DNA of 64,000 nucleotides, from the sequence record PV467749.1; one strand, 5' to 3'. Each line of letters starts with the position of its first letter. Positions within the stretch are counted from its first letter, which is position 1. Both the position numbers and the translations under genes were made by a program. The notes under the pieces are model-generated. The model had not been told where the DNA came from. It ran no database searches and worked only from the letters and a program-made list of their open reading frames with translations. This DNA comes from a phage. Below are positions 14,012 through 14,269 of this stretch, one piece after another.

Positions 14012-14269
14012 TTATCTCATAGATCTATGCCAACAATTACGCGGATCTCTTTTAAAAGTACTATCATGATCCTCCTGGCAAGTAATACAATACATGCACC
14101 CTATAACGGCCTGGCGTCGATTCTCAGGGATTTTATCGCCGCAGTCGAGGCAATGTACTAGTGATTCTCTTTGTGCGTTAATTTGCTTTCTAGCGTGGTT
14201 AACGGCGGCCTGAATCACTGCGTTAATCTCGTCTTGCTCGGCCCCATCTTTCGCGAATCCTACTGCCAT
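14012..14269 (-). CDS. TraR/DksA-type C4 zinc-finger protein
   Basis: CLDCGDKIPENRRQAVIGCMYCITCQE fits the C-x2-C-x17-C-x2-C signature with the IP...R core. Confidence 0.65.
   Translation of the reverse strand: MAVGFAKDGAEQDEINAVIQAAVNHARKQINAQRESLVHCLDCGDKIPENRRQAVIGCMYCITCQEDHDSTFKRDPRNCWHRSMR

What the first reader, a model, noticed from the sequence alone, without database searches (positions are those of the whole stretch)
14012..14269. TraR/DksA-type zinc-finger protein among the early genes
CLDCGDKIPENRRQAVIGCMYCITCQE closely matches the C4 zinc finger of the TraR/DksA family, whose members bind the RNA polymerase secondary channel. A phage-encoded member suggests direct modulation of host transcription during early infection.
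Basis: partly seen in the sequence, partly recalled or inferred. Interest (0 to 1): 0.4.

Follow-up and report, generated by a model that had tools for sequence, protein, structure and literature searches.

The report
Phage TraR/DksA-type zinc-finger gene
This is a real, conserved 85-residue zinc-finger gene of the TraR/DksA family in the early region of a jumbo coliphage; related phages already carry this annotation, and it probably binds host RNA polymerase, but that has never been tested for this subtype.

Summary
The ORF is real. It lies at window 14012-14269 on the minus strand, encodes 85 aa, and contains the quoted peptide at residues 40-66. It passes Pfam's curated threshold for the dksA/traR C4 zinc finger (E 3.9e-9). 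Its best solved relatives are E. coli YbiI and F-plasmid TraR bound to RNA polymerase. It is under purifying selection (dN/dS 0.13-0.18).

The window is from an Asteriusvirus (121Q/PBECO4-like) jumbo phage. Orthologues are already annotated as "DksA-like" or "TraR/DksA C4-type zinc finger protein". The "early gene" claim fits the context. The gene maps inside the ~21-kb direct terminal repeat, about 11.3 kb from the physical end, among small genes driven by perfect sigma-70 consensus promoters.

- The protein is YbiI-type, not canonical TraR.
- The TraR residues that contact the RNA polymerase rim helices and beta'Si3 (I-P-E-x-R-R) are invariant here.
- The DxxDxA tip is replaced by D8-G-A-E11-Q-D13, behind a conserved N-terminal extension, and a conserved 10-residue tail (PRNCWHRSMR) is added.

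Binding to RNA polymerase is therefore likely but remains an inference. This is an ordinary, already annotated gene of low to moderate interest.

The parts
14012..14269 (-). Coding sequence of the 85-aa TraR/DksA-family (YbiI-type) zinc-finger protein, stop codon included
   Evidence: ORF list; Pfam, PHROG and NCBIfam hits; dN/dS 0.13-0.18
14228..14269 (-). Codons 1-14, MAVGFAKDGAEQDE: a conserved N-terminal extension plus an acidic tip (D8, E11, D13, E14). It takes the place of the TraR DxxDxA motif
   Evidence: In 37 phage-type sequences G4, G9, E11, Q12 and E14 are 37/37 and D8 is 35/37. In register with lambda Orf73, D8=D3, E11=D6 and D13=A8. No DxxDxA occurs in the N-terminal tip of any family member listed
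14078..14152 (-). Codons 40-64: C4 zinc finger, C40-x2-C43-x17-C61-x2-C64, the same spacing as TraR C37/C40/C58/C61
   Evidence: The four Cys are invariant in 54 sequences; Pfam match covers residues 39-68
14114..14131 (-). Codons 47-52, I-P-E-N-R-R: these align with TraR I44-P45-E46-A47-R48-R49, the residues that contact the beta' rim helices and beta'Si3
   Evidence: I47, P48, R51 and R52 are invariant and E49 nearly so. The roles of TraR P45, E46, R48 and R49 are from PMC9239242 and PMC6970531
14015..14056 (-). Codons 72-85, FKRDPRNCWHRSMR: a phage-clade-specific basic/aromatic C-terminal tail. Bacterial YbiI has YNRRGSKDSQLR here. The last 10 residues extend beyond the end of TraR
   Evidence: R74 and R77-R85 are invariant or nearly so in 37 phage-type sequences. 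AlphaFold confidence is low here. The tail also matches phrog_25948
14278..14281 (-). Ribosome-binding site GAGG, 8 nt upstream of the ATG
   Evidence: Read directly from the sequence
14566..14594 (-). Most likely promoter: TTGACA-17 nt-CATAAT (11 of 12 matches), followed by the same initial transcribed sequence (ACTTACATCA) as two other early promoters of the window (12366, 22152)
   Evidence: Consensus scan; conserved in vB_Ec-M-J and WPEC3. That it is used is an inference
14270..14565 (-). About 295-nt leader between that promoter and the ATG, with no convincing ORF. A 48-aa TTG ORF at 14269-14415 overlaps the start codon as TAATG and is annotated only in WPEC3. The leader carries a conserved box CCCATAGGGTGCACAAATGTA and a cluster of GATCAA repeats
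   Evidence: Nearly identical in three phages (4 variable columns in about 300), whereas the coding sequence differs at about 9% of sites. Box copies and GATCAA cluster. Folding z-score is only -1.6
14618..14643 (-). Intrinsic-terminator-like hairpin plus T-run. It ends the upstream transcription unit (47-aa gene at 14650-14793), so the gene has its own unit
   Evidence: Scan found an 11-bp stem with 6 GC pairs followed by TTTTTCTTTTT
13978..14005 (-). Perfect TTGACA-16-TATAAT promoter starting 7 nt after the stop codon. It serves the downstream GNAT acetyltransferase gene (13592-13948). No terminator lies between the two genes
   Evidence: GNAT assignment from Pfam PF00583, E 4e-9

Best explanation
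The gene encodes a small DNA-independent regulator of the TraR/DksA family, of the YbiI subtype. Host sigma-70 RNA polymerase probably transcribes it from the first DNA of an Asteriusvirus jumbo phage to enter the cell.

Proposed mechanism. [quoted passage not shown] The single N-terminal helix (residues 6-28) runs down the channel and places D8, E11 and E14 near the active centre. [quoted passage not shown] Host promoters with short-lived open complexes (rRNA and ribosomal-protein promoters) would be inhibited, freeing host polymerase for phage promoters. The phage needs this enzyme throughout infection, because this phage group supplies only a sigma factor.

Shown here: the gene is real and under purifying selection, it belongs to the family, the rim-helix contact residues are conserved, and it sits in the early-type region.

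Inferred only: binding to RNA polymerase, the direction of the effect on transcription, and the timing of expression.
For: Family and fold:
- Pfam PF01258 above threshold; PHROG 54.
- Best NCBIfam model is the YbiI type, NF008243, at 79.9 bits.
- PDB sequence hits to YbiI and TraR.
- AlphaFold model with a helix at 6-28, a zinc knuckle and a helix at 62-68, mean pLDDT 73.
- Best Foldseek PDB matches are YbiI 2KGO and TraR in RNAP complexes 6N57 and 5W1S, followed by DksA proteins.

Contact residues:
- The equivalents of TraR P45, E46, R48 and R49 are invariant or nearly so across 54 phage and bacterial relatives. These residues are needed for RNAP binding or activation in TraR (PMC9239242 and PMC6970531).

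Similarity to tested proteins:
- 45% identity over an ungapped 47 residues to lambda Orf73 (E 2e-12). Orf73 binds RNAP, inhibits rRNA promoters and raises burst size (PMC9239242).
- In that register D8 and E11 fall on Orf73 D3 and D6. The distance from the first acidic residue to the first Cys is 32, as in Orf73 and P2 Orf82.
- P2 Orf82 also has an imperfect motif (DNVDFI) yet binds RNAP and complements a dksA deletion.
- E. coli YbiI rescued the dksA amino-acid auxotrophy when overexpressed (PMC2613031, data not shown there).

Context:
- The gene lies inside the region that maps onto the 21.5-kb direct terminal repeat of vB_Ec-M-J. A repeat of this kind was confirmed by restriction digestion in the related phage fEgEco12 (PMC13070987).
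- There are 11 perfect and 18 near-perfect (at most one mismatch) sigma-70 consensus promoters co-directional with the genes in that region. Shuffled copies of the whole window give about 3.4 at that stringency, both strands together.
- These phages encode a sigma factor, and no phage polymerase is mentioned for them (PMC11895373).
- Purifying selection: dN/dS 0.13-0.18.
Against: - The defining DxxDxA motif is not present. The tip reads D8-G-A-E11-Q-D13 and is preceded by 7 residues, against 2 in TraR. [quoted passage not shown]
- HMMER aligns only residues 21-74 to TraR. The first 20 residues are not alignable.
- Scores fall below NCBI's curated cut-offs for both the YbiI model (79.9 < 96) and the TraR model (49.2 < 59.7).
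- The C-terminal helix is predicted to be short (62-68) and is followed by a low-confidence tail.
- Some C4 zinc-finger proteins of this superfamily that lack DxxDxA and the C-terminal helix do not act like DksA (PMC9239242).
- All tested phage homologues come from temperate phages. No YbiI-type protein has published biochemistry in the searched library.
- No expression data exist for this phage group. The nearest strong promoter is about 295 nt upstream.
Confidence: 0.6

Rival explanations
1. It acts as a secondary-channel plug. The protein binds the rim helices and occupies the channel, but without the canonical tip it does not reprogram initiation as TraR does. Its role would be to exclude host DksA/ppGpp, GreA and GreB, as Rnk does. 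This would shield phage transcription from the host stringent response, or change elongation and proofreading.
For: The rim-helix contact residues are invariant while the tip motif differs. Rnk is a precedent for a channel binder that competes without Gre or DksA activity (PMC9239242). The phage clade has a DxxE spacing at the tip that resembles the Gre DxxExA motif more than DxxDxA.
Against: The first 14 residues are extremely conserved, E11 and E14 in 37 of 37 sequences. That argues for a specific contact made by the tip rather than passive occupancy. YbiI, which has a related tip, was reported to rescue a dksA phenotype, which implies some DksA-like activity.
Confidence: 0.15
2. It is a zinc-finger protein with a target other than RNA polymerase. 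The fold is inherited from the TraR/DksA family, but the conserved N-terminal motif and the basic tail RNCWHRSMR bind another host protein or a nucleic acid.
For: Superfamily members that lack DxxDxA and the C-terminal helix are known not to act like DksA. Both family-specific motifs, MAxGFAKDGA and the tail, lie outside what aligns with TraR. [quoted passage not shown] In phage VP882 the TraR homologue works in a complex with a partner protein (bioRxiv 10.64898/2026.07.27.740977).
Against: Conservation of I-P-E-x-R-R is hard to explain without the polymerase contact, because these are surface residues that are not needed to bind zinc. The best structural matches are polymerase-bound TraR chains. 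No match to any other functional family reaches significance.
Confidence: 0.2
3. It is a chance ORF or a decaying gene with no function.
For: One relative (CMSTMSU) gives a split tblastn match. A T4-like phage carries only a truncated 54-aa derivative. The coding sequence is more diverged than its flanks.
Against: dN/dS is 0.13-0.18. The ORF is intact in dozens of Asteriusvirus and T4-like phages and keeps 66-67% protein identity after synonymous sites have saturated. The ribosome-binding site is good.
Confidence: 0.02

Closest known systems
E. coli YbiI (PDB 2KGO; NCBIfam NF008243/PRK11019), an uncharacterised DksA/TraR-family protein
   Same: Full-length homology: the family profile aligns positions 1-85 to the whole protein with E 8e-28. 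Both share the N-terminal motif MAxG(F/W)AxDGAxQ, the C4 finger, I-P-x-x-R-R and a C-terminal arginine. It is the best Foldseek match.
   Different: The score is below NCBI's curated cut-off (79.9 < 96). Acidic residues are placed differently: the phage clade has E11 and E14 where the bacterial clade has V11 and Q14, and the bacterial D16, E20 and D21 are lost. The tail is PRNCWHRSMR rather than YNRRGSKDSQLR. YbiI is a chromosomal gene, and its own function is unknown apart from an unpublished dksA-rescue result.
F-plasmid TraR (PDB 5W1S, 6N57), a ppGpp-independent regulator that binds the RNA polymerase secondary channel
   Same: A single N-terminal helix of similar length, then a C4 zinc finger with identical Cys spacing, then a C-terminal segment. 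The equivalents of P45, E46, R48, R49, G54 and Q62 are conserved. Foldseek TM-score is about 0.5 against RNAP-bound TraR.
   Different: There is no DxxDxA motif and the first 20 residues are not alignable. The protein has 3-5 extra N-terminal and about 10 extra C-terminal residues. K50 is Q53 here. The TIGR02419 score is below its cut-off. It is encoded by a virulent jumbo phage rather than a conjugative plasmid.
Phage lambda Orf73 (and P2 Orf82, VHML Orf8, VP882 Orf61/TraR_VP882), experimentally tested phage TraR homologues
   Same: 45% identity to Orf73 over residues 28-74 without gaps. The distance from the first acidic residue to the first Cys is the same, 32. All are phage-encoded and expressed from early operons. 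P2 Orf82 shows that an imperfect tip motif can still work.
   Different: All of those are about 73-aa proteins of temperate phages, encoded near lysis-lysogeny or replication genes. This one is 85 aa and YbiI-type. It lies in the terminal repeat of a virulent jumbo phage and also occurs in T4-like phages.
DksA (PDB 1TJL, 5VSW)
   Same: The same zinc-finger domain family (Pfam PF01258), and a proposed channel-inserted helix with acidic residues at its tip.
   Different: DksA has a two-helix coiled coil and about 113 residues before the first Cys, and it needs ppGpp. Here one helix and 39 residues precede the first Cys. Sequence similarity is marginal (E 0.19 with the profile; NF033459 E 0.038).
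GreA/GreB tip motif DxxExA
   Same: The phage clade's D8-x-x-E11 spacing is the Gre-type acidic pair rather than DxxD.
   Different: There is no homology to Gre factors. The third position is D13, not A. This is a resemblance only and was not tested.

Membership tests
Pfam PF01258 zf-dskA_traR (prokaryotic DksA/TraR C4-type zinc finger) | Profile score at or above the curated gathering score | tested here: met
   36.8 bits against 24.9, E 3.9e-9, residues 39-68
Pfam PF01258 zf-dskA_traR (prokaryotic DksA/TraR C4-type zinc finger) | Four cysteines arranged CxxC-x17-CxxC | tested here: met
   C40, C43, C61 and C64 are invariant in 54 relatives. The spacing is identical to TraR C37/C40/C58/C61
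TraR-type RNA polymerase regulators (TraR, lambda Orf73; PMC9239242) | DxxDxA motif at the N-terminal tip of the channel helix | tested here: not met
   The sequence is D8-G-A-E11-Q-D13. In the lambda Orf73 register this reads DxxExD, and in the TraR register A6/G9/E11. No DxxDxA occurs in the N-terminal tip of any family member listed. Acidic residues are present and conserved: D8 in 35/37, E11 in 37/37, E14 in 37/37
TraR-type RNA polymerase regulators (TraR, lambda Orf73; PMC9239242) | Globular-domain residues that contact the beta' rim helices and beta'Si3 (TraR P45, E46, R48, R49) | tested here: met
   P48, R51 and R52 are invariant and E49 nearly so. TraR K50 is Q53 here
TraR-type RNA polymerase regulators (TraR, lambda Orf73; PMC9239242) | Single N-terminal helix of about 26 residues, then a zinc globule, then a C-terminal helix that contacts the beta lobe-Si1 | tested here: inconclusive
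   AlphaFold gives a helix at 6-28 and the zinc knuckle. The C-terminal helix spans only 62-68 and the tail has low confidence. The profile aligns residues 62-74 to TraR 59-71 without gaps, and P76 caps any helix near the point where TraR ends
TraR-type RNA polymerase regulators (TraR, lambda Orf73; PMC9239242) | NCBIfam TIGR02419 (C4_traR_proteo) score at or above its cut-off | tested here: not met
   49.2 bits against 59.7
TraR-type RNA polymerase regulators (TraR, lambda Orf73; PMC9239242) | Binds RNA polymerase, inhibits rRNA promoters and complements a dksA deletion | not testable with these tools
   Needs biochemistry or genetics. The only related datum is YbiI rescuing the dksA auxotrophy at high expression, reported as data not shown (PMC2613031)
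YbiI family (NCBIfam NF008243 / PRK11019) | Equivalog model score at or above its cut-off | tested here: not met
   79.9 bits against 96. It is nevertheless the best-scoring model, covering residues 1-73
YbiI family (NCBIfam NF008243 / PRK11019) | Conserved N-terminal motif M-A-x-G-(F/W)-A-x-D-G-A-x-Q | tested here: met
   MAVGFAKDGAEQ. The motif is nearly invariant in both the phage and the bacterial clades
YbiI family (NCBIfam NF008243 / PRK11019) | Conserved C-terminal motif (Y/F)NRRGSKDSQLR | tested here: not met
   It is replaced by PRNCWHRSMR, which is invariant in 37 phage-type sequences. Only R77 and the final R are shared
DksA proper (NCBIfam NF033459) | N-terminal coiled-coil hairpin and ppGpp-contacting residues; model score at or above its cut-off | tested here: not met
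   Only 39 residues and one predicted helix precede the zinc finger. NF033459 gives E 0.038, 14.3 bits against 105

The most novel reading that the evidence does not exclude
The YbiI-type proteins, including this phage clade found in Asteriusvirus jumbo phages and many T4-like phages, may form a mechanistically distinct class of secondary-channel factor. In place of the DxxDxA tip they carry an invariant N-terminal extension (MAVGF-AKDGAEQ-E). That extension cannot fit where the TraR N-terminus sits, 4.3 A from the catalytic Mg2+. It may instead reach into the active centre or fold back like the DksA hairpin. The phage-specific tail RNCWHRSMR would make a new contact. Virulent phages would deliver such a factor from their first-entering DNA to act on host polymerase in a way that differs from TraR, for example by direct catalytic inhibition or by excluding Gre and DksA.
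Probability: 0.2. Interest if true: 0.55.

Novelty: already known. Interest (0 to 1): 0.22.

Why it matters
If the protein binds host RNA polymerase, strictly virulent jumbo and T4-like phages would use a TraR-like, ppGpp-independent switch to redirect host transcription within the first minutes of infection. So far this has been demonstrated only for a conjugative plasmid and for temperate phages. It would also give the uncharacterised YbiI subfamily, which has 308 cluster representatives at E <= 1e-10, its first functional handle. As it stands, the gene is a routine annotation. Its value lies in being a well-defined candidate for a simple set of biochemical tests.

Tried and rejected
- Known RNA in the 295-nt leader or elsewhere: an Rfam search of the whole window at gathering thresholds found nothing.
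- Leader structure: folding the leader gave a z-score of only -1.6.
- Conserved box CCCAYMGGGTGC..TGTA: the consensus fold of its seven copies gave a 7-pair stem with no covariation. I therefore do not claim an RNA element.
- Defence or anti-defence role: PADLOC gave only a 15.8-bit hit at E 0.0013, treated as noise.
- Second zinc site from C58, H68, C79 and H81: rejected because C58 (19/37) and H68 (21/37) are not conserved, although C79 and H81 are invariant.
- Conserved pairing with the neighbouring GNAT acetyltransferase: the T4-like phage CUA3 has different neighbours, so there is no conserved operon.
- AGTACTG before the -10 element as an extended -10, or as a LexA half-site: the TG is one position out of register for an extended -10, and only half of a LexA box matches (my own reading). 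Both ideas were dropped.
- Function of YbiI in the literature: nothing was found beyond PMC2613031. Most 'YbII' hits are ytterbium chemistry.
- Predicting from promoter anatomy whether the phage promoters would resist a TraR-like factor: discriminators are AT-rich (28% GC), but the spacers are mostly 16 bp, so no firm prediction is possible.
- My first typed DksA fragment was wrong at its N-terminal end. No argument rests on it.

Full report
**1. The observation**

Window 14012-14269 is an ATG-to-stop ORF of 85 codons on the minus strand. A GAGG ribosome-binding site lies 8 nt before the ATG.

The ORF matches Pfam PF01258 (prokaryotic dksA/traR C4-type zinc finger) at E 3.9e-9, 36.8 bits against a gathering score of 24.9. 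It matches PHROG 54 'DksA-like zinc-finger protein' at E 5.7e-19.

**2. Where the window comes from**

The DNA is 90-97% identical to Asteriusvirus jumbo coliphages of 350-385 kb: WPEC3, CMSTMSU, TH47, vB_Ec-M-J, 121Q and PBECO4. Several of these records already annotate the orthologue. It is 'TraR/DksA C4-type zinc finger protein' in WPEC3, 'DksA-like zinc-finger protein' in vB_Ec-M-J, JP4 and RefSeq 121Q, and 'C-4 type zinc finger protein' in GenBank 121Q gene 294. An identical protein is encoded, unannotated, in phage UB. At the level of annotation the finding is already known.

**3. Is it a functional gene?**

Among three Asteriusvirus orthologues dN/dS is 0.13-0.18. Against a T4-like orthologue the synonymous sites are saturated (pS 0.84-0.93), yet the proteins remain 66-67% identical.

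A word-indexed protein search found 54 relatives. About 40 are 60-94% identical proteins of 84-87 aa from Asteriusvirus and from ~170-kb T4-like phages (Citrobacter phage Moon, vB_EcoM_RZ, Yersinia phages MHG19 and fHe-Yen9-01). The remaining 11 are 88-92-aa bacterial proteins. A tblastn search found matches in 960 phage records. An exhaustive profile search found 2464 cluster representatives at E <= 1e-3 and 308 at E <= 1e-10. The gene is real and belongs to a large family.

**4. Which subfamily?**

- The best NCBIfam model is NF008243 (PRK11019, the E. coli YbiI type) at 79.9 bits over residues 1-73.
- Next come TIGR02419 (TraR family, 49.2 bits), the F-plasmid TraR equivalog (31.4 bits) and DksA (14.3 bits).
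- None of these reaches its curated cut-off.
- In the PDB the best sequence match is YbiI 2KGO (E 6e-12 alone, 8e-28 with the family profile, full length). TraR in RNA polymerase complexes is second (E 7e-6 and 1e-12), but only over residues 21-74. DksA is marginal at E 0.19.
- An AlphaFold model built on the 54-sequence alignment has mean pLDDT 72.9. It shows a disordered N-terminus (1-5), a long helix (6-28), the zinc knuckle, a short helix (62-68) and a low-confidence tail.
- Its best Foldseek PDB matches are YbiI, then TraR chains from 6N57 and 5W1S, then DksA-family proteins.

**5. Anatomy compared with TraR**

The literature defines three TraR elements that contact RNA polymerase (PMC6970531; PMC9239242):

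- an N-terminal helix (residues 2-27) carrying DxxDxA, whose tip lies 4.3 A from the catalytic Mg2+;
- a globular zinc domain, in which R48 contacts the beta' rim helices, E46, R49 and K50 contact beta'Si3, and P43/P45 are needed for binding;
- a C-terminal helix (58-73) that contacts the beta lobe-Si1.

(a) The globular domain is conserved. C40, C43, C61 and C64 have TraR's spacing. I47, P48, R51, R52, G57 and Q65 are invariant and E49 nearly so in all 54 relatives. These are surface residues that are not needed to bind zinc. Their conservation is the strongest argument for a TraR-like docking on the polymerase.

(b) The tip is non-canonical. No DxxDxA occurs in the N-terminal tip of any family member listed. 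The N-terminus MAVGFAKDGAEQ-E is nearly invariant instead. In 37 phage-type sequences G4, G9, E11, Q12 and E14 are present in 37/37 and D8 in 35/37. BLASTP aligns residues 28-74 without gaps to lambda Orf73 residues 23-69 (45% identity, E 2e-12). Extending that register puts D8, E11 and D13 on Orf73 D3, D6 and A8. The distance from the first acidic residue to the first Cys is 32, as in Orf73 and P2 Orf82; it is 34 in TraR. An acidic pair therefore sits at the expected depth, but as DxxE. It is followed by D rather than A and preceded by 7 residues rather than 2. The bacterial clade differs: V11, Q14, D16, E20 and D21.

(c) The C-terminal element is ambiguous. The profile aligns residues 62-74 to TraR 59-71 without gaps, but AlphaFold makes only 62-68 helical. 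P76 lies about where TraR ends. The last ten residues, PRNCWHRSMR, are an invariant phage-specific extension; bacterial YbiI has YNRRGSKDSQLR.

**6. Context and timing**

In vB_Ec-M-J the orthologue (EcMJ_029) lies inside an annotated 21,525-bp direct terminal repeat and occurs twice in the record. A repeat of about 21 kb was confirmed by restriction digestion in the related phage fEgEco12 (PMC13070987). BLAST maps position 1 of vB_Ec-M-J to window 25573 and the end of the repeat to about window 5100. The gene therefore lies about 11.3 kb from the physical end and is transcribed inward.

That stretch of the window is an array of small minus-strand genes separated by 60-100-bp spacers. It holds 11 perfect TTGACA-16/17-TATAAT promoters and 18 with at most one mismatch, all co-directional with the genes. 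Shuffled copies of the whole window give about 3.4 sites at that stringency, both strands together.

The gene's own most likely promoter is TTGACA-17-CATAAT at 14594-14566. It follows a terminator-like hairpin at 14643-14618, and about 295 nt of leader separate it from the ATG. No terminator separates the gene from the next unit, a GNAT acetyltransferase gene with its own perfect promoter.

In T4-like phages the relatives sit among small ORFs of the tk-nrdC region. From my own knowledge, that region holds early, non-essential genes in T4. Asteriusvirus phages are 'group 2' jumbo phages. They encode a sigma factor, and the paper consulted proposes that it directs the host polymerase; no phage-encoded polymerase is mentioned (PMC11895373). 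'Early gene read by host polymerase' is thus well supported by context, but no transcript data exist.

**7. Most likely mechanism**

[quoted passage not shown] Lambda Orf73 also slowed host growth and raised burst size (PMC9239242). P2 Orf82 has an imperfect tip (DNVDFI) yet still functions, though more weakly. E. coli YbiI rescued the dksA auxotrophy at high expression, reported as data not shown (PMC2613031).

I therefore rate a TraR-like, ppGpp-independent action on host RNA polymerase as the best explanation, at about 0.6. The rivals are a channel plug without TraR-like allostery (0.15), a target other than the polymerase (0.2) and a non-functional ORF (0.02). The main reasons for doubt are the missing DxxDxA, the N-terminal extension that cannot occupy TraR's position next to the Mg2+, the sub-threshold subfamily scores, and the precedent of superfamily members that lack DksA activity.

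**8. Novelty and score**

The gene, its family assignment and the general idea of phage TraR homologues that reprogram host transcription are all known. Two things are not in the literature I could search. One is any test of a YbiI-type member. The other is any test of a member from a virulent phage. The most novel reading that survives is a distinct tip mechanism for the YbiI-type clade, at a probability of about 0.2. Overall interest is low to moderate (0.22).

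Noticed in passing
whole window; densest at 6000-30000: The palindrome AGTACT is the most over-represented hexamer together with CAGTAC and GTACTG. 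There are 274 copies against about 21 expected (12.7-fold). CAGTACTG occurs 61 times against 0.7 expected. Density is 10.5 per kb in non-coding DNA and 3.2 per kb in coding DNA, and within ORFs it falls in all three frames, so it is a DNA-level signal. Many copies sit just before the -10 hexamer (AGTACTG-TATAAT) or form an AAAAAGTACTTGCA -35-like element. There are none in window 1-4000. This is unexplained.
   Followed up: partly
window 14270-14604 (-): The roughly 300-nt leader upstream of the zinc-finger gene is almost identical in three phages (4 variable columns). The coding sequence that follows differs at about 9% of sites, and the surrounding block is 96.4% identical. The leader holds six GATCAA/TTGATC sites within one 200-bp bin (14401-14600), the densest such cluster in the window. 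It also contains a 48-aa TTG ORF (14269-14415) whose stop overlaps the ATG as TAATG. Folding gives a z-score of only -1.6.
   Followed up: partly
window, minus strand at 6527, 9279, 12549, 14535, 16230 and 22433; plus strand at 22369: There are seven copies of a conserved box, CCCAYMGGGTGC-N6-TGTA-(T/A)CTAT, each about 25-35 nt downstream of a promoter -10 element. The two copies at about 22.4 kb face each other as an inverted repeat. No covarying structure was found and there is no Rfam match.
   Followed up: partly
window 9000-19000 intergenic spacers, e.g. 13234-13327, 15097-15190, 16093-16185: The early intergenic regions are repeats of one module: an A/T-rich upstream tract, a consensus promoter, the initial transcribed sequence (A/G)TTTACATC, a conserved 5'-UTR hairpin (GGGGAGAA-N4-6-TTCTCCCC) and then the ribosome-binding site. 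A second repeated hairpin, AAAGGGATTGACTCCGGTCAGTCCCTTT, contains its own TTGACT-17-TATTAT promoter-like site at 9343, 12608 and 16294.
   Followed up: partly
window about 5100 and 25573: Homology to the left physical end of vB_Ec-M-J stops exactly at window 25573. The inner end of its 21.5-kb direct terminal repeat maps to about window 5100. The window therefore spans a whole terminal-repeat equivalent and runs through the terminus, so the source is a collapsed or permuted assembly. A perfect promoter at 25208 is the first one inside the end. Beyond the repeat (window 146-5005) the genes become tightly packed and overlapping.
   Followed up: partly
window 30570-50825 (+): This stretch holds a tandem array of about 16 ORFs of similar size (357-449 aa) on the opposite strand. 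The first one has RCC1-like repeat matches (PF25390 E 3.5e-20, below its cut-off; PF13540 above its cut-off). Another member (46368-47717) has no Pfam hit.
   Followed up: partly
L003 2453-2617 (Escherichia phage vB_EcoM_JS09, JS09_077): This T4-like phage carries a 54-aa derivative (phrog_25948). It keeps only the second CxxC and the tail FKREPRNCWHRSMR, fused to an unrelated N-terminus, and lies in the tk-nrdC region. It may be a recombinant or a decayed copy.
   Followed up: partly
MH494197.1 (phage CMSTMSU) 121380-121630: The orthologue gives a tblastn match split into two pieces at 64.8% identity, although the DNA is 96% identical. This suggests a frameshift, either a sequencing error or a pseudogene.
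   Followed up: no
window 13592-13948 (-): The immediately downstream gene encodes a 118-aa GNAT-family acetyltransferase (PF00583, E 4e-9) with its own perfect sigma-70 promoter. The pairing is conserved in Asteriusvirus but not in the T4-like phage examined.
   Followed up: partly
window 14605-14824 compared with vB_Ec-M-J 11273-12013: There is an indel hotspot just upstream of the gene's promoter. vB_Ec-M-J and WPEC3 carry two or three small genes here, where the window has only one 47-aa gene (14650-14793).
   Followed up: no
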